A stretch of 64,000 nt of DNA from Escherichia phage ECML-1, in the sequence record OL631478.1. One strand, given 5' to 3'. Of the stretch, positions 57,810 through 63,556 are shown piece by piece; position 1 is the first letter of the stretch; the number at the start of each line of letters is the position of its first letter. Position numbers and translations under genes: made by a program. Under the pieces are notes generated by a model that saw only the letters and a list, made by a program, of their open reading frames with translations, was not told where the DNA came from and ran no database searches.

Positions 57810-57889
57810 CTCCGTTTAGCTCAGTTTGGTTTAGCAGCACTTGCTTTGGGAGCAAGGGGTCGAGGGTTCAAATCCTTCAACGGAGACCA
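57810..57889 (+). tRNA. tRNA-Pro(TGG)
   Basis: 7 bp acceptor ctccgtt/aacggag, anticodon arm cttgc-tttggga-gcaag, T-loop TTCAAAT, CCA encoded; 3 extra nt before the anticodon stem make an alternative CTT reading possible. Confidence 0.5.
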
Positions 57890-57896
57890 AATTAAT

Positions 57897-57974
57897 GTTC
57901 CAGTAGACAAAATGGTAAAGTCACCACTCTTTCAAAGTGGATATTTGAGGGTTCAAATCCCTTCTGGAACGCCA
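57897..57974 (+). tRNA. tRNA-Glu(TTC)
   Basis: Acceptor gttccag/ctggaac, anticodon arm ccact-ctttcaa-agtgg, CCA encoded. Confidence 0.65.
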
Positions 57975-57980
57975 GTTTTG

Positions 57981-58053
57981 ACAGAAGACCAATTACAGCA
58001 AACTTAATCTACTCATCTGAAAGTTAATCGGACAAAGAAGATATTTGGTCTGG
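57981..58053 (+). ncRNA. structured spacer element, copy 1 of the cagaAGACC/GGTCTgg hairpin family
   Basis: acagaagacca...tggtctgg; stem agacca/tggtct encloses a ~55 nt loop starting ttacagcaa. Confidence 0.45.
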
Positions 58054-58064
58054 TCATTAAGAAT

Positions 58065-58141
58065 TGCGGGTATAGAGAAAGGGCGTCTCACATGTCTCAT
58101 TAGCATGGTATCGGCAGGTTCGACTCCTGCACCCGCCTCCA
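58065..58141 (+). tRNA. tRNA-Met(CAT)
   Basis: Anticodon arm catgt-ctcatta-gcatg, T-arm gcagg-ttcgact-cctgc, CCA encoded; first acceptor pair is a T-C mismatch. Confidence 0.5.
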
Positions 58142-58146
58142 AATTT

Positions 58147-58212
58147 ACAGAAGACCGTTTACAGCAATATTTATTAAATTTTTAGCGGAAAAAATTGAAA
58201 TATACGGTCTGG
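58147..58212 (+). ncRNA. structured spacer element, copy 2
   Basis: acagaagaccgt...acggtctgg; stem agaccgt/acggtct covaries with the other copies. Confidence 0.45.
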
Positions 58213-58225
58213 TAATACTAAACAT

Positions 58226-58302
58226 GGTTAGGAAGCACATAAGGTATGTGCGGTCGCCTGTTAAGCGAATGGCACAGGGTTCGAATCCCTGACTAACCGC
58301 CA
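58226..58302 (+). tRNA. tRNA-Asn(GTT)
   Basis: D-stem gcac/gtgc, anticodon loop ctgttaa, T-arm caggg-ttcgaat-ccctg, CCA encoded; one acceptor mismatch. Confidence 0.55.
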
Positions 58303-58310
58303 AATTAAAT

Positions 58311-58398
58311 GTGTCGTTATCCCGTAGATGGTAGCGGTGGGGACTGTAAATCCCTTGTCATTGAGACTCGGTAGGTTCGACTCCTACACGGCACACCA
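58311..58398 (+). tRNA. tRNA-Tyr(GTA)
   Basis: Type II (long variable arm), anticodon loop ctgtaaa, acceptor gtgtcgt/acggcac, CCA encoded. Confidence 0.6.
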
Positions 58399-58403
58399 AT
58401 AAA

Positions 58404-58480
58404 GGCTATGTAGTTTAACTGGAGAAAATACTCCCCTGTCACGGGAGATGATGTGAGTTCAAGTCTCATCATAGCCGCCA
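58404..58480 (+). tRNA. tRNA-Asp(GTC)
   Basis: Acceptor ggctatg/catagcc, anticodon arm ctccc-ctgtcac-gggag, CCA encoded. Confidence 0.65.
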
Positions 58481-58510
58481 ATTTTGAGAGGGCTATTTAG
58501 CCCCTCCCTT

Positions 58511-58540
58511 AAAGGGTTCTTACGAGTATCCTTTAAAGGA
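58511..58540 (+). ncRNA. conserved spacer hairpin (aagg-Rttcttacgag-tcctt family), copy 1
   Basis: aaagggttcttacgagtatccttt; a related copy is at 62446..62470. Confidence 0.35.
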
Positions 58541-58617
58541 GCAGAAGACCAAATACAGCAAGAACGTATGAAAATTTCAAGCCAATTTAATTTTGAAAAA
58601 TTTAAAACTTGGTCTGG
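58541..58617 (+). ncRNA. structured spacer element, copy 3
   Basis: gcagaagaccaa...ttggtctgg; stem agaccaa/ttggtct. Confidence 0.45.
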
Positions 58618-58629
58618 CTCAACAAATTT

Positions 58630-58762
58630 ACAGAAGACCGTTTACAGCAAAACTTAAACAATCTATTTCTCGGTAAAGAAAAGGCGAAGGTTCGATTCCT
58701 TCACTCGGCAGATGTCGAGTTGGTGTAATGGTAGCACTTAAGATGATAAACAACGGTCTGGT
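58630..58762 (+). ncRNA. candidate Y-RNA-like tRNA mimic (copy 4 of hairpin family enclosing a tRNA-like module)
   Basis: Stem agaccgtt (58635-58642) pairs with aacggtct (58752-58759) and encloses a T-arm gaagg-ttcgatt-ccttc plus acceptor-3'-like cactcggca and a D-arm-like gagttggtgtaatggtagcac, with no canonical 5' acceptor strand or anticodon arm. Confidence 0.35.
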
Positions 58763-61619: not shown

Positions 61620-61638
61620 ATTTAAAGAGGCTATTTAG

Positions 61639-62196
61639 ATGAGATATTTGAAGTATGCTTCATGGATTTTCTTAGCTTTGTTAGAGCCATTTGCAGCAAT
61701 CTTAGCAGTTATCTTAGCACCTTTTGTAGTTCCATTCTACAGTGAGAAGAAAGGACACTTACCTTTCGGGTTCAGATGGATGGAGACATATGACAACCCA
61801 ATTGATGGTGATGAAGGTCACGTTAAAAGATGGGCTAATATTAGATGGATTGGTAAACTAGGCGTCTACATGCAAAGAGTCGGATGGCTCTGGAGAAACA
61901 AAGCTTATAACTTCTCTTACCATGTATTAGGAAGAGATGTAAAAGATGTTACTAAGTGGAAAGGTAATATCAACGTAAGTTCTGACCCCGAAGATAATCA
62001 GACAGGTTATCTCCTAATGTGGAACAGTAATGCTTGGGGATTATTCGCTTTTATCCCATCAATTAAAATCTTTGGTAAACAATTTTACTGGAGAATTTAT
62101 ATTGGATGGAAACTAAAAAGTGTTGTCCCAGAAGAAAGAGCATTCTCAAGGGAAAGAGTTATGTTGGCATTCTTTATTCATCCACTGAGAAAGTAA
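61639..62196 (+). CDS. hypothetical membrane protein embedded in the tRNA array
   Basis: 185 aa; N-terminal hydrophobic segments (IFLALLEPFAAILAVILAPFVVPF). Confidence 0.45.
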   Translation: MRYLKYASWIFLALLEPFAAILAVILAPFVVPFYSEKKGHLPFGFRWMETYDNPIDGDEGHVKRWANIRWIGKLGVYMQRVGWLWRNKAYNFSYHVLGRDVKDVTKWKGNINVSSDPEDNQTGYLLMWNSNAWGLFAFIPSIKIFGKQFYWRIYIGWKLKSVVPEERAFSRERVMLAFFIHPLRK

Positions 62197-62204
62197 AGAT
62201 TTAA

Positions 62205-62280
62205 AGGGGATTAGTTTACAAGGTTAAAACCTCGGTCTTTGAAATCGAAGAAGTTGGTTCAATTCCAACATCCCCCGCCA
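62205..62280 (+). tRNA. tRNA-Gln(TTG)
   Basis: Anticodon arm tcggt-ctttgaa-atcga, T-arm gttgg-ttcaatt-ccaac, CCA encoded; first acceptor pair is an A-C mismatch. Confidence 0.55.
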
Positions 62281-62282
62281 AT

Positions 62283-62361
62283 GCTCCATTACTCCAATTG
62301 GCAGAGAGGCCAGACTTAAAATCTGTGTTATGTATCGGTTCGAATCCGATATGGAGTACCA
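62283..62361 (+). tRNA. tRNA-Leu(TAA), short variable arm
   Basis: Acceptor gctccat/atggagt, anticodon loop cttaaaa, T-arm atcgg-ttcgaat-ccgat, discriminator A, CCA encoded. Confidence 0.5.
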
Positions 62362-62366
62362 AATTT

Positions 62367-62442
62367 AGCGGTATAGCATAACTGGCAATGCAGCAGCCTC
62401 TGAAGCTGTCCTATTAAGGTTCAAATCCTTATGCCGCTGCCA
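62367..62442 (+). tRNA. tRNA-Gln(CTG)
   Basis: Anticodon arm gcagc-ctctgaa-gctgt, T-arm taagg-ttcaaat-cctta, CCA encoded. Confidence 0.55.
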
Positions 62443-62445
62443 CTT

Positions 62446-62470
62446 CTAAGGATTCTTGCGAGAGTCCTTA
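62446..62470 (+). ncRNA. conserved spacer hairpin, copy 2
   Basis: aaggattcttgcgagagtcctta; related to 58511..58540. Confidence 0.35.
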
Positions 62471-62473
62471 AAT

Positions 62474-62549
62474 GTGGCCTTATCATAAATGGTAATGACC
62501 CATGCTGTGAACATGGTCTATACGGGTTCAAATCCCGTAGGTCACCCCA
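62474..62549 (+). tRNA. tRNA-His(GTG)
   Basis: Anticodon arm ccatg-ctgtgaa-catgg, discriminator C, T-arm acggg-ttcaaat-cccgt, CCA encoded. Confidence 0.65.
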
Positions 62550-62554
62550 ATTTA

Positions 62555-62631
62555 TAGTCCAAGTAGCTTATATGGTTAAAGCGCGTGTCTGAAAAACATG
62601 AGAAGAGGGTTCAAATCCCACTGGACTACCA
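62555..62631 (+). tRNA. tRNA-Phe(GAA)
   Basis: Anticodon arm cgtgt-ctgaaaa-acatg, D-stem gctt/aagc, T-loop TTCAAAT; acceptor register uncertain by 1-2 nt. Confidence 0.5.
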
Positions 62632-62647
62632 ATTTCAAAGGTGCTTA

Positions 62648-63382
62648 ATGAAAGAGATGACAGAACAAGGTAAGGAGATTTTTAATCTCTTAAAAACCGG
62701 TAAAGGGTTCTCTAACCCACTGATTACCGGTGCAGCAGTTCTCGGTGGAACCGTAGCTGCTTCTACATCACTTGTAAGCTCTATTAGTTCTGTAACAGAC
62801 CCTACAATGAAGGAGAAACTTGTTGCTGCTGGACTTACAACAGTCCTTCTAAACAGCTTTACAACAAGCCTTACAAGCACTACAGCAACTACTAAAACTC
62901 TGACAGACTACGGTCAAAAGTCTATTGATGAGTTTTCATCACGTATGCAGGTAGCAAAGGGGTATTCCAATGTTATGGGTGCAGCAGGAGAACAAGTTGG
63001 TTGTACACCATTCAGTGGTATCATGGGTGTTGCTACAGAGTATGGTCAAAAAGCTATTGACATGATGAACAGTACACTAGATAGTGTTAATGGTGTGTTA
63101 AGTGACTTACAAGATGCTATTGATAAGGGTCTTGATACTGTTTCTGATTTAGCTAACCAAGCTGTCAGTAAGATTAATGAAGGTATCTCAAAGATTACAG
63201 CTTATGCAGATGAAGTTGTGCAGATGATTGAAGAAGAAGCTGCCCTTATTGCAGAGTACCTTAAAACGAATATCAATGGGTTCTTAGCAGGTATCTTACC
63301 AGACTGGTTTGATGATGCTTGTAAAACTGGTGTGATTGACACTATTGCAACACCAGAAATGAAGAACGCATTACAGAAATAA
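62648..63382 (+). CDS. hypothetical protein (Ser/Thr/Ala-rich)
   Basis: Start moved to the internal Met (MKEMTEQ) because the ORF-track start lies inside tRNA-Phe; 244 aa. Confidence 0.45.
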   Translation: MKEMTEQGKEIFNLLKTGKGFSNPLITGAAVLGGTVAASTSLVSSISSVTDPTMKEKLVAAGLTTVLLNSFTTSLTSTTATTKTLTDYGQKSIDEFSSRMQVAKGYSNVMGAAGEQVGCTPFSGIMGVATEYGQKAIDMMNSTLDSVNGVLSDLQDAIDKGLDTVSDLANQAVSKINEGISKITAYADEVVQMIEEEAALIAEYLKTNINGFLAGILPDWFDDACKTGVIDTIATPEMKNALQK

Positions 63383-63384
63383 TG

Positions 63385-63476
63385 GAAGATTAACCCTAAA
63401 AGGTAAGGGAGCAGTTTGCTAAACTGCCAGTAGCTGAGAAATCGGTGTACCAGTTCAAGTCTGGTATCTTCCTCCA
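63385..63476 (+). tRNA. tRNA-Ser(GCT)
   Basis: Type II, acceptor ggaagat/atcttcc, anticodon arm gcagt-ttgctaa-actgc, long variable arm, CCA encoded. Confidence 0.6.
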
Positions 63477-63480
63477 ATTT

Positions 63481-63556
63481 GAATCCGTGACAGAAATGGC
63501 TATGTGCCTGTCTGCAAAACAGGTTTATAAGGGTTCGAGTCCCTTCGGATTCTCCA
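63481..63556 (+). tRNA. tRNA-Cys(GCA)
   Basis: Acceptor gaatccg/cggattc, anticodon arm cctgt-ctgcaaa-acagg, T-arm aaggg-ttcgagt-ccctt, CCA encoded. Confidence 0.65.

What the first reader, a model, noticed from the sequence alone, without database searches (positions are those of the whole stretch)
57810..63556. Near-complete tRNA complement (about 27 genes) interleaved with three protein genes and homing endonucleases
By manual folding the array carries anticodons for all 20 amino acids (Pro, Glu, Met, Asn, Tyr, Asp, Lys x2, Met/Ile, Ile, Arg x2, Trp, Ser x2, Leu x3, Ala, Gly, Thr, Val, Gln x2, His, Phe, Cys). Several have a mismatched first acceptor pair (Val and Gln A1-C72; Met T1-C72). 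Two HNH genes and a membrane protein gene are embedded.
Basis: seen in the sequence. Interest (0 to 1): 0.45.

Follow-up and report, generated by a model that had tools for sequence, protein, structure and literature searches.

The report
Phage tRNA array hiding Y-like RNAs
This is the well-known transfer-RNA gene cluster of a Felix O1-type phage. Its supposedly empty spacers hold four unannotated small RNAs that look like the partner RNAs of the Ro60-like protein encoded just upstream.

Summary
One is an Arg(UCU)-like gene without a D arm, at 59393-59474. The other is a Trp(CCA)-like gene with an oversized D region, at 59974-60056.

The window is 95-99.9% identical to Felixounavirus genomes, where this cluster and its HNH endonuclease genes are already annotated and published. 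The finding as stated is therefore already known.

What is not annotated anywhere sits in the spacers at 57979-58764. Four RNA modules there each close with the same bulged helix followed by ACAGCAA. The fourth carries a permuted tRNA-like domain (T arm, closed acceptor stem, D arm), which is the architecture of bacterial YrlA Y RNAs. The gene immediately upstream (56229-57644) folds as a Ro60 ring.

A covariance model built only from Felix-type copies finds full-length relatives next to homologous Ro-like genes. These include phages of Yersinia, Vibrio, Bacillus, Enterococcus and Mycobacterium. It finds none in three tRNA arrays of phage types that lack the gene.

Binding of these RNAs to the protein is inferred, not shown.

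The parts
56160..56189 (+). sigma-70-like promoter before the Ro60-like gene
   Evidence: TTGACA-18-TAAAGT, 10 of 12 matches; consensus match only
56229..57644 (+). Ro60-like protein gene (DUF2828 + DUF7788; HEAT-repeat ring plus vWA domain with a DxSxS MIDAS motif)
   Evidence: Pfam hits. AF2 model pLDDT 87.6. The top 11 Foldseek PDB hits are all Ro60/TROVE, best E 5.9e-8, TM up to 0.65. D279, S281 and S283 are invariant in 29 homologues.
57754..57783 (+). sigma-70-like promoter of the tRNA array
   Evidence: TTGACA-18-TAAAGT with an upstream TG
57810..57889 (+). tRNA-Pro (UGG)
57897..57974 (+). tRNA-Glu (UUC)
57979..58056 (+). Y-like module U1: outer helix UGAC/GUCA, AGA/G internal loop, inner helix AGACCAA/UUGGUCU, ACAGCAA, small variable hairpin
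   Evidence: R1 39.4 bits, E 6e-7
58065..58141 (+). tRNA-Met (CAU) with a U1:C72 mismatch (initiator-type feature)
   Evidence: The 1:72 position is a mismatch in all relatives, with different bases.
58145..58215 (+). Y-like module U2: outer helix UUAC/GUAA, AGA/G loop, inner helix AGACCGU/ACGGUCU, ACAGCAA
   Evidence: The outer helix changes to UUGC/GCAA in relatives, a compensatory change. R1 58.4 bits.
58226..58302 (+). tRNA-Asn (GUU)
58311..58398 (+). tRNA-Tyr (GUA)
   Evidence: listed as a pseudo-tRNA in the Felix O1 paper
58404..58480 (+). tRNA-Asp (GUC)
58539..58620 (+). Y-like module U3: outer helix GAGC/GCUC, AGA/G loop, inner helix AGACCAA/UUGGUCU, ACAGCAA
58628..58764 (+). Y-like module U4, the tRNA mimic. 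Closing helix at 58628-58642 with 58752-58764. ACAGCAA at 58644-58650. T arm at 58685-58701. Closed acceptor-like stem at 58702-58719. D arm at 58721-58737.
   Evidence: Fold z -2.1. RNAalifold and pair counts show three covarying pairs in the acceptor-like stem. Across phages, 27 of 32 pairs change on both sides.
58771..58898 (+). U6: ~130-nt structured RNA of unknown kind with a long closing stem
   Evidence: Fold z -3.6. 11 pairs change on both sides across 19 variants. No Rfam hit.
58911..58986 (+). tRNA-Lys (UUU)
58991..59067 (+). second CAU tRNA (elongator Met or Ile2; undetermined)
59069..59144 (+). tRNA-Ile (GAU)
59160..59188 (+). internal sigma-70-like promoter
   Evidence: TTGACA-17-TATAGT, 11 of 12 matches
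59393..59474 (+). Arg(UCU)-like non-canonical tRNA gene: no D arm, ~20-nt insert after the anticodon arm
   Evidence: Rfam tRNA 31.7 bits with the D arm deleted in the alignment. Missed by ARAGORN. It is an alternative allele to a canonical tRNA-Arg(UCU) in relatives.
59489..59836 (+). HNH endonuclease gene 1
   Evidence: Pfam HNH, E 0.0027. Present or absent among relatives, and always beside the odd Arg allele.
59974..60056 (+). Trp(CCA)-like non-canonical tRNA gene (26-nt D region)
60070..60159 (+). tRNA-Ser (UGA)
60429..60881 (+). HNH endonuclease gene 2
   Evidence: Pfam HNH, E 7.6e-5; present in only some relatives
60883..60959 (+). tRNA-Leu (UAG)
60967..61042 (+). tRNA-Lys (CUU)
61049..61124 (+). 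tRNA-Ala (UGC)
61131..61205 (+). tRNA-Gly (UCC)
61213..61288 (+). tRNA-Thr (UGU)
61293..61379 (+). U5: conserved ~87-nt hairpin RNA of unknown kind
   Evidence: Fold z -3.7; nearly invariant in 17 variants
61385..61459 (+). tRNA-Val (UAC), A1:C72
   Evidence: The mismatch is private to this phage.
61461..61538 (+). tRNA-Leu (CAA)
61544..61619 (+). tRNA-Arg (ACG)
61639..62196 (+). DUF7338 protein gene (hydrophobic N-terminus)
   Evidence: Pfam, E 1e-61
62205..62280 (+). tRNA-Gln (UUG), A1:C72
62283..62361 (+). tRNA-Leu (UAA)
62367..62442 (+). tRNA-Gln (CUG)
62474..62549 (+). tRNA-His (GUG)
62556..62631 (+). tRNA-Phe (GAA)
62648..63382 (+). DUF7217 protein gene
   Evidence: Pfam, E 2e-87; syntenic in distant relatives
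63384..63476 (+). tRNA-Ser (GCU)
63481..63556 (+). tRNA-Cys (GCA)
63719..63745 (+). terminator-like hairpin with a T run, closing the array

Best explanation
The region is the tRNA gene cluster of a Felix O1-type myovirus (Felixounavirus).

Shown by the tools:
- There are 25 canonical tRNA genes and two non-canonical tRNA-like genes, all on one strand. 24 of the 25 canonical genes and both non-canonical genes encode their CCA end.
- They lie behind sigma-70-like promoters at 57754 and 59160 and ahead of a terminator-like site at 63719.
- Two mobile HNH endonuclease genes and two conserved genes of unknown function (DUF7338, DUF7217) are interspersed.

Inferred role of the tRNAs: the set supplies at least one tRNA per amino acid. 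Most have U34 or G34 anticodons that match the A/U-ending codons this 39% G+C phage prefers. They are expected to raise translation of phage messages and to insure the phage against loss of host tRNAs.

The new part concerns the spacers at 57979-58764. Four RNA modules there share one signature. A 4-bp outer helix is followed by a 3x1 internal loop (AGA opposite G). Then comes an inner helix, AGACC/GGUCU plus 2-3 variable pairs, and then single-stranded ACAGCAA. Three modules carry only a small hairpin. The fourth carries a permuted tRNA-like domain with a T arm, a closed acceptor-like stem and a D arm.

Inferred mechanism for the modules:
1. They are released from the array transcript by the same RNase P and 3'-end processing that releases the flanking tRNAs.
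2. Their bulged helix and ACAGCAA form the binding site for the Ro60-like ring protein encoded directly upstream (56229-57644).
3. The result is a phage Ro-Y RNA particle in which the tRNA-like or hairpin part recruits or decoys a tRNA- or RNA-handling host factor.
For: Array:
- Gene calls agree between tools.
- The region is 95-99.9% identical to annotated Felixounavirus clusters.
- The Felix O1 paper describes the cluster and its codon-usage rationale.
- Codons that are Watson-Crick cognate to phage tRNAs are enriched in phage ORFs against a 40-gene E. coli sample. Mean log2 ratio is +0.45 against -0.35, Mann-Whitney p 0.04. AGA is 12.7x, ACA 3.5x and CCA 2.9x.
- HNH genes vary between near-identical relatives.

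Y-like RNAs:
- The four modules are present in all 30 Felix-type loci examined.
- Compensatory changes occur in the U2 outer helix and the U4 acceptor-like stem.
- A geometry scan finds them only in the array on the + strand. They score 11-12, against 0-3 hits at the scan's score cut-off of 8 in each shuffled 64-kb window.
- Model R1, built from Felix-type U4 only, finds full-length relatives on the gene's strand beside homologous Ro-like genes. Hits are in L036 (78.9 bits), a 143-kb phage (64.9 and 55.4), Vibrio phage phi-pp2 (40.9), Yersinia phage P778 (34.7), Bacillus phage vB_BcoS-136 (61.9), Enterococcus phage EfV12-phi1 (57.2) and Mycobacterium phage Samty (25.9).
- On the 24-sequence alignment, 96.9% of cells pair against 34-46% when partners are slid, and 27 of 32 pairs change on both sides.
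- Rfam's YrlA model matches two of these relatives below its threshold, at E 1e-5 and 8e-5, and aligns the T, acceptor-like and D arms as assigned here.
- Three tRNA arrays of phage types that lack the gene (T5-like, rV5-like, T4-like) give only partial hits of 19.5 bits or less.
- The upstream protein has the Ro60 fold.
- The PhageMaP preprint independently called the Bas63 orthologue Ro60-like and guessed that Y RNAs might hide among the tRNAs.
Against: - There are no expression, processing or binding data for any module.
- U4 itself does not match Rfam YrlA even at E <= 10.
- The known 5' Ro-binding motif GNCGAA(N)G is not conserved at the expected place.
- Bas63 gp130 alone, from a plasmid or inserted in T7, counters the ppl defence. 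That activity therefore does not need these RNAs.
- In three genomes that carry the gene (Aeh1, ME3, phiN3), nothing convincing lies within 5 kb of it.
- The alignment behind one search was fitted to the model, which inflates the percentage paired.
- The codon-usage support is modest. The commonest Gly codon, GGU, has no cognate phage tRNA.
- The Arg(UCU)-like and Trp-like genes may not be functional tRNAs.
Confidence: 0.8

Rival explanations
1. The four modules are only punctuation of the polycistronic tRNA precursor. In this view they are processing or stability hairpins, or decayed tRNA genes, with no function once cut out and no link to the Ro60-like protein.
For: They sit exactly between tRNAs, 2-10 nt from the flanking genes. 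U4 contains tRNA-derived T and D arms, and a tRNA-tRNA junction can mimic that order. R1 gives weak partial hits at such junctions. The Ro-like protein works against ppl without them.
Against: The acceptor-like stem of U4 is a closed hairpin whose sequence is replaced while pairing is kept. ACAGCAA and the loop geometry are conserved from enterobacterial to Bacillus, Enterococcus and Listeria phages. In Samty the element lies right after the Ro-like gene, with the only tRNA gene in the 9.4-kb stretch examined lying 1.2 kb upstream of that gene. T5-, rV5- and T4-type arrays lack the modules.
Confidence: 0.15
2. The array exists mainly as a defence countermeasure rather than for codon matching. 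A near-complete private tRNA set would replace host tRNAs that are cleaved or depleted by anticodon nucleases and similar systems during infection.
For: Every amino acid is covered, which is more than codon compensation needs. The codon-usage signal is weak, p 0.04. PhageMaP found the Bas63 tRNAs mostly non-essential on laboratory strains and suggested conditional roles. The neighbouring Ro-like gene is an anti-defence gene. That phage tRNAs can evade tRNA-targeting defences is established knowledge recalled from memory, not tested here.
Against: The strongest codon enrichments (AGA, ACA, CCA, UCA, UUA, CUA) do coincide with phage tRNAs. No tRNA-targeting defence was tested here. The two roles are not exclusive.
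Confidence: 0.4
3. The Arg(UCU)-like and Trp(CCA)-like elements are pseudogenes. The working complement would then be 25 tRNAs for 19 amino acids, and the phage would rely on the host for Trp and AGA decoding.
For: ARAGORN rejects both. The Arg-like element lacks a D arm and folds no better than shuffled sequence, z 0.04. About half of the close relatives carry a canonical tRNA-Arg(UCU) at that position instead. The Felix O1 authors found no tRNA for AGA.
Against: Both keep intact acceptor and T arms, a 7-nt anticodon loop with U33, and an encoded CCA. The Arg-like allele is identical over 38 nt in 12 loci. The Trp-like anticodon stem covaries, and the gene keeps A1-U72, G73 and CCA. These are the TrpRS identity elements as recalled from memory. 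AGA is the most phage-enriched codon.
Confidence: 0.35
4. The cluster is chiefly a selfish mosaic. Homing endonucleases would spread tRNA cassettes between co-infecting phages, and the gene content would reflect drive rather than benefit.
For: HNH genes come and go between 95-99% identical genomes. HNH1 always accompanies one Arg allele. Homing endonucleases act in the tRNA regions of T4 (SegB) and T5. This is recalled from memory.
Against: The order and isotype set of the tRNAs are kept down to relatives with 53-63% identical Ro-like protein. Anticodons and structures are maintained.
Confidence: 0.1

Closest known systems
tRNA cluster of Salmonella phage Felix O1 and other Felixounavirus genomes (Whichard et al. 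2010, PMC3185647; GenBank annotations)
   Same: Same genes in the same order at 95-99.9% DNA identity. Same HNH-type insertions. Same flanking genes: DUF5681, the Ro-like 'RNA-binding protein', DUF7217 and the large terminase.
   Different: Nothing essential differs for the tRNAs. HNH content and the Arg(UCU) allele vary from strain to strain. Public records annotate only tRNAs in 57975-58770 and not the four modules.
Bacterial YrlA-type Y RNAs bound by Ro60/Rsr (Chen et al. 2014, PMC4201824; Rfam RF02553)
   Same: Encoded next to a Ro60-fold gene and on the same strand. The 5' and 3' ends pair into a stem. U4 has the YrlA order: variable hairpin, T arm, closed acceptor-like stem, D arm. Shorter companion RNAs lack the tRNA-like part, as YrlB does.
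   Different: The protein belongs to the DUF2828 branch rather than the Pfam TROVE branch. The GNCGAA(N)G motif is replaced by a bulged helix plus ACAGCAA. U4 gives no hit to RF02553. There are four copies, embedded in a tRNA array rather than in an rsr-rtcBA operon.
Thermus phage phiLo Ro60 with Yrl1 and Yrl2 (PMC12135203)
   Same: A phage Ro60-fold protein with adjacent small RNAs that form a stem, a bulge and a stem. The phiLo structure is the best Foldseek match to the window protein.
   Different: The phiLo RNAs carry a CGAA bulge and lie upstream of the gene, not in a tRNA array. Binding and a PNPase complex were shown there and not here.
Phage T4 tRNA region with stable RNAs rnaC and rnaD and the SegB homing endonuclease (recalled from memory; rnaC and rnaD are annotated in RB3)
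   Same: Non-tRNA stable RNAs are co-transcribed with a phage tRNA cluster and cut out of it. A homing endonuclease is associated with the cluster.
   Different: R1 does not match rnaC or rnaD. No Ro-like gene was seen in the RB3 locus examined.

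Membership tests
Felixounavirus tRNA gene cluster | A run of tRNA genes called by standard predictors | tested here: met
   25 by ARAGORN and 24 by Rfam at gathering score
Felixounavirus tRNA gene cluster | Sequence identity and synteny with Felix O1 and its relatives | tested here: met
   194 records cover at least 80% of the region at 80-99% identity. Gene order matches SP22 and Felix O1.
HNH homing endonuclease | HNH catalytic motif | tested here: met
   Pfam PF01844, E 7.6e-5 (23.2 bits, above the cut-off of 21.4) for HNH2 and E 0.0027 (18.2 bits, below that cut-off) for HNH1
HNH homing endonuclease | Sporadic presence between otherwise collinear genomes | tested here: met
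   tblastn across 30 relatives shows presence or absence at fixed sites
HNH homing endonuclease | Cleavage of the endonuclease-free allele and preferential inheritance | not testable with these tools
   needs enzyme assays or mixed infections
Ro60 / TROVE protein | HEAT-repeat ring followed by a vWA domain | tested here: met
   AF2 pLDDT 87.6. Full-length Foldseek matches to 9kop, 2i91, 2nvo, 1yvp and 9nfa, with E 6e-8 to 6e-6.
Ro60 / TROVE protein | MIDAS motif DxSxS in the vWA domain | tested here: met
   D279, S281 and S283 are invariant in 29 homologues
Ro60 / TROVE protein | Match to the Pfam TROVE model or sequence-level similarity to solved Ro60 | tested here: not met
   Pfam gives DUF2828 and DUF7788 only. 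A profile search against PDB sequences gives E 0.58 to Xenopus Ro60.
Y RNA, YrlA type (Rfam RF02553) | Encoded within a few kb of a Ro60 gene and on the same strand | tested here: met
   U1-U4 start 335 nt after the stop codon, on the + strand. The same holds in 10 other phage lineages.
Y RNA, YrlA type (Rfam RF02553) | Stem formed by the 5' and 3' ends | tested here: met
   Closing helices with covariation
Y RNA, YrlA type (Rfam RF02553) | tRNA-like domain in the order V, T arm, acceptor-like stem-loop, D arm | tested here: met
   Met by U4. U1-U3 lack the domain, as YrlB does.
Y RNA, YrlA type (Rfam RF02553) | 5' motif GNCGAA(N)G | tested here: not met
   ACAGCAA occupies that place. A GGCGAAG string at the T-arm junction is not conserved in relatives, which have GGAGAAG or GAGAGAAG.
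Y RNA, YrlA type (Rfam RF02553) | Score against the Rfam covariance model | tested here: not met
   No hit at E <= 10 for 58615-58780. Relatives in L038 and Samty reach 40.9 and 37.9 bits against a gathering score of 69.
Y RNA, YrlA type (Rfam RF02553) | Physical binding to the Ro protein; tRNA-type modifications | not testable with these tools
   needs RIP or EMSA and modification mapping

The most novel reading that the evidence does not exclude
DUF2828-type Ro60-like proteins and 'ACAGCAA' Y-like RNAs form a widespread and so far undescribed phage ribonucleoprotein. It would occur in myoviruses and siphoviruses of Gram-negative and Gram-positive hosts. Its RNAs would be manufactured by the tRNA-processing machinery from inside tRNA arrays. 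Its tRNA-mimic subunit would act as a decoy or tether for host tRNA-directed nucleases or RNA-decay enzymes, protecting the phage's own tRNA supply.
Probability: 0.35. Interest if true: 0.75.

Novelty: new variant of a known kind. Interest (0 to 1): 0.55.

Why it matters
The tRNA cluster itself adds nothing new. The four embedded RNAs do, for three reasons.

- They place a Ro-Y RNA system in a genetically tractable E. coli and Salmonella phage whose Ro-like gene already has an anti-defence phenotype. What phage Ro proteins and their RNAs do therefore becomes directly testable.
- They show that 'spacers' in phage tRNA arrays, left unannotated in the public records examined (236 records carry this region), can hold conserved non-tRNA RNAs.

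Tried and rejected
- **Alternative pairing.** I first considered that GGUCUGG (5') pairs with CAGAAGACC (3') across each tRNA, making stems that flank the tRNAs. I rejected this because the variable bases next to the conserved cores covary only within a module and not across tRNAs.
- **Permuted tRNA gene.** I considered reading U4 as a permuted or split tRNA gene. I rejected this because there is no anticodon arm and the acceptor stem is closed by a loop in every relative.
- **tmRNA.** Weak hits to tmRNA, permuted tmRNA and tRNA-Sec at 59086-59391 are far below gathering scores and were not pursued.
- **Sequence search of the protein.** phmmer and profile searches of the Ro-like protein against PDB sequences gave nothing significant. 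Only the fold comparison worked.
- **Literature.** A search for 'DUF2828' returned only unrelated plant and tardigrade papers. The supplements of Chen 2014 that list its 22 phages are not held, so I cannot exclude that some DUF2828 phages were among them.
- **Rfam YrlA on U4.** No hit.
- **Duplex-energy scan.** A scan around every NCAGCAA site did not discriminate. I replaced it with the strict geometry scan.
- **Host origin of the CAU tRNAs.** blastn of the two CAU tRNAs against 5,426 E. coli genomes found no match. Comparison with other phage CAU tRNAs did not settle Met against Ile2 for 58991-59067.
- **Bas63 accession.** My guess of MZ501113 was wrong; that record is Bas35. The link to gp130 therefore rests on the preprint's description of synteny and not on a measured identity.
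- **U5.** Its alignment is too conserved to test structure.

Full report
**1. The observation**

ARAGORN finds 25 tRNA genes between 57810 and 63556. Rfam's tRNA model finds 24 at gathering score. It adds an element at 59393-59471 (31.7 bits) and misses Met 58065 and Tyr 58311.

- The Arg(UCU)-like gene (59393-59474) has a good acceptor stem, T arm, anticodon stem-loop (CUUCUAA) and CCA. It has no D arm and carries about 20 extra bases after the anticodon arm.
- The Trp-like gene (59974-60056) has the acceptor stem AUGGGAC/GUCCCAU, G73, CCA and the loop CUCCAAA. Its D region is 26 nt long. Its anticodon stem covaries in a relative.

- The Met mismatch is kept in relatives with different bases (U:C, C:C, A:A). 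This fits an initiator-type feature.
- The Val mismatch is private to this phage.

24 of the 25 ARAGORN genes encode CCA. Four protein genes are embedded, not three: two HNH genes, DUF7338 and DUF7217.

**2. What it is**

The region is 95-99.9% identical to many Felixounavirus genomes, including Felix O1, SP22, KhF1 and bumzen. In those genomes the same tRNAs and endonuclease genes are annotated. The Felix O1 genome paper lists 22 tRNAs, discusses codon usage and counts six HNH genes (PMC3185647). As stated, the finding is already known.

Consensus promoter matches lie at 57754 and 59160, and a terminator-like site lies at 63719.

The HNH genes differ between near-identical relatives. The Arg(UCU) position holds one of two mutually exclusive alleles. 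One is a canonical tRNA. The other is the D-armless form found here and in Felix O1. HNH1 is always next to the D-armless form.

**3. Function of the tRNAs**

I compared 41 long phage ORFs with 40 annotated E. coli K-12 genes. Codons that are Watson-Crick cognate to a phage tRNA are relatively enriched in the phage (mean log2 +0.45 against -0.35, p 0.04). The extremes are AGA at 12.7x, ACA at 3.5x, CCA at 2.9x and UCA at 2.75x.

The anticodon set is mostly U34 in four-codon boxes and G34 in NNY boxes. This is a minimal decoding set by the wobble rules, which is an inference. It is not complete, because GGU, the commonest Gly codon, has no cognate phage tRNA.

Codon matching and insurance against tRNA loss are both plausible. 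The data here cannot separate them.

**4. What the spacers contain**

The gene directly upstream (56229-57644) matches Pfam DUF2828 and DUF7788. A confident AlphaFold model (pLDDT 87.6) matches Ro60/TROVE structures over its full length. All of the top 11 PDB hits are Ro60/TROVE, including Thermus phage phiLo Ro60, Xenopus and human Ro60 and Deinococcus Rsr. A DxSxS MIDAS motif is invariant. The PhageMaP preprint reached the same fold assignment for Bas63 gp130, showed that it counters the ppl defence, and only speculated that some 'tRNA genes' might be Y RNAs.

Reading the spacers showed four units: 57979-58056, 58145-58215, 58539-58620 and 58628-58764. Each has the following parts:
- a 4-bp outer helix (UGAC/GUCA, UUAC/GUAA, GAGC/GCUC, UUAC/GUAA);
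- an AGA-opposite-G internal loop;
- the helix AGACC/GGUCU, extended by 2-3 variable pairs;
- ACAGCAA.

The fourth unit also holds a T arm (GAAGG-UUCGAUU-CCUUC), a closed 7-bp acceptor-like hairpin and a D arm (GUGU-AAUGGUA-GCAC). This is the order described for YrlA.

**5. Evidence that the modules are real, conserved RNAs**

- All 30 Felix-type loci examined carry them.
- The U2 outer helix switches from UUAC/GUAA to UUGC/GCAA. The U4 acceptor-like stem is ACUCGGC/GUCGAGU, ACACG/CGUGU or ACCCUUC/GAAGGGU in different relatives.
- A strict geometry scan finds the four units at scores of 11-12. Chance hits in the window score 8-10.5. A shuffled window gives 0-3 hits per strand at the scan's cut-off of 8.
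- A covariance model built only from Felix-type U4 finds full-length matches in other phages. All are on the strand of the Ro-like gene and next to it:

| Phage or locus | Ro-like protein identity | R1 score (bits) |
|---|---|---|
| L036 | 56% | 78.9 |
| 143-kb phage | 51% | 64.9, 55.4, 31.1 |
| Bacillus phage vB_BcoS-136 | 33% | 61.9 |
| Enterococcus phage EfV12-phi1 | 31% | 57.2 |
| Vibrio phage phi-pp2 | 46% | 40.9 |
| Yersinia phage P778 | 53% | 34.7 |
| Mycobacterium phage Samty | 34% | 25.9 |

- A short module also lies just upstream of the gene in Listeria phage LMTA-34.
- On the 24-sequence alignment, 96.9% of cells pair, against 34-46% for slid partners. 27 of 32 pairs change on both sides. 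That alignment was fitted to the model, which inflates the percentage paired.
- tRNA arrays of a T5-like, an rV5-like and a T4-like phage give only partial hits of 19.5 bits or less.

**6. Relation to known Y RNAs**

Rfam's YrlA model (RF02553) matches two of the relatives below its threshold (40.9 and 37.9 bits, gathering score 69). It aligns their T, acceptor-like and D arms as I assigned them. It gives no hit on the window's U4, even at E <= 10. The GNCGAA(N)G motif is also not conserved.

The modules therefore work like YrlA and YrlB but fail two membership tests. I file them as a new variant.

Phage Y RNAs described so far are in mycobacteriophages, CcrColossus, Bacillus phage G and Thermus phiLo (PMC4201824, PMC12135203). 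I found no paper that describes them in Felix O1-type phages.

**7. Limits**

- Expression, processing and binding are all inferred.
- gp130 alone rescues T7 on a ppl host, so that activity does not need these RNAs.
- Three genomes that carry the gene show no clear module within 5 kb of it.

My confidence by claim:

| Claim | Confidence |
|---|---|
| Identity of the array | about 0.97 |
| The modules are conserved structured RNAs | about 0.9 |
| The modules are ligands of the Ro-like protein | about 0.65 |

Noticed in passing
window 58771-58898: A ~130-nt structured RNA (U6) lies between module U4 and tRNA-Lys. Its long closing stem has 11 pairs changed on both sides across 19 variants. Its apical hairpin, CAGACC-UUAAGCAA-GUCUGG, looks like a miniature of the AGACC/GGUCU plus ..AGCAA signature. 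It has no Rfam match.
   Followed up: partly
window 61293-61379: A conserved ~87-nt hairpin (U5) fills the Thr-Val gap (fold z -3.7). It contains CUGAAGACCGUAACAA, which resembles the 5' part of the modules. It is too invariant to test for covariation.
   Followed up: partly
window 59393-59474 and relatives L019 9244-9320, L021 9291-9366: The Arg(UCU) site has two mutually exclusive alleles among near-identical phages: a canonical tRNA and a D-armless form. AGA is nevertheless the most phage-enriched codon (27% of Arg codons against 2% in the E. coli sample). Why half the lineage keeps the odd form is unexplained.
   Followed up: partly
window 59145-59392 and 60160-60428: Two ~250-nt non-coding stretches inside the array have no assigned feature, apart from a strong promoter match at 59160. 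Only insignificant tmRNA-like hits were found.
   Followed up: no
L036 ~12290-12340 and L037 ~12450-12500: In two distant relatives the Trp-like genes appear to have an 8-nt anticodon loop (CUUCCAAA) between the stems GUAGG/CCUAC.
   Followed up: no
L041 (Listeria phage LMTA-34) 941-1039 and 3428-3979: The tRNA array next to this phage's Ro-like gene gives a drum RNA hit above gathering score and a ROOL RNA hit just below it. RtcB, an RNA ligase and an HD phosphohydrolase lie downstream, which is an RNA-repair neighbourhood.
   Followed up: no
L039 (Vibrio phage phi-pp2) ~7960-8000: An ACAGCAA motif sits about 20 nt upstream of the start codon of the Ro-like gene. This might allow the protein to regulate its own message.
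   Followed up: no
L038 13393-14652: An IS605 OrfB/TnpB (Cas12f-like) gene is inserted inside the tRNA array of a 143-kb phage that also carries five Y-like modules.
   Followed up: no
L043 (Aeromonas phage Aeh1) 9184-9305: A 122-nt feature is annotated as tRNA-Val. That is too long for a tRNA. It gives a weak R1 hit (15.9 bits) and might be a tRNA-like RNA of another kind.
   Followed up: no
window 55776-56147: A DUF5681 gene precedes the Ro-like gene here and in relatives down to 53% identity of the Ro-like protein, so the pair is syntenic.
   Followed up: no
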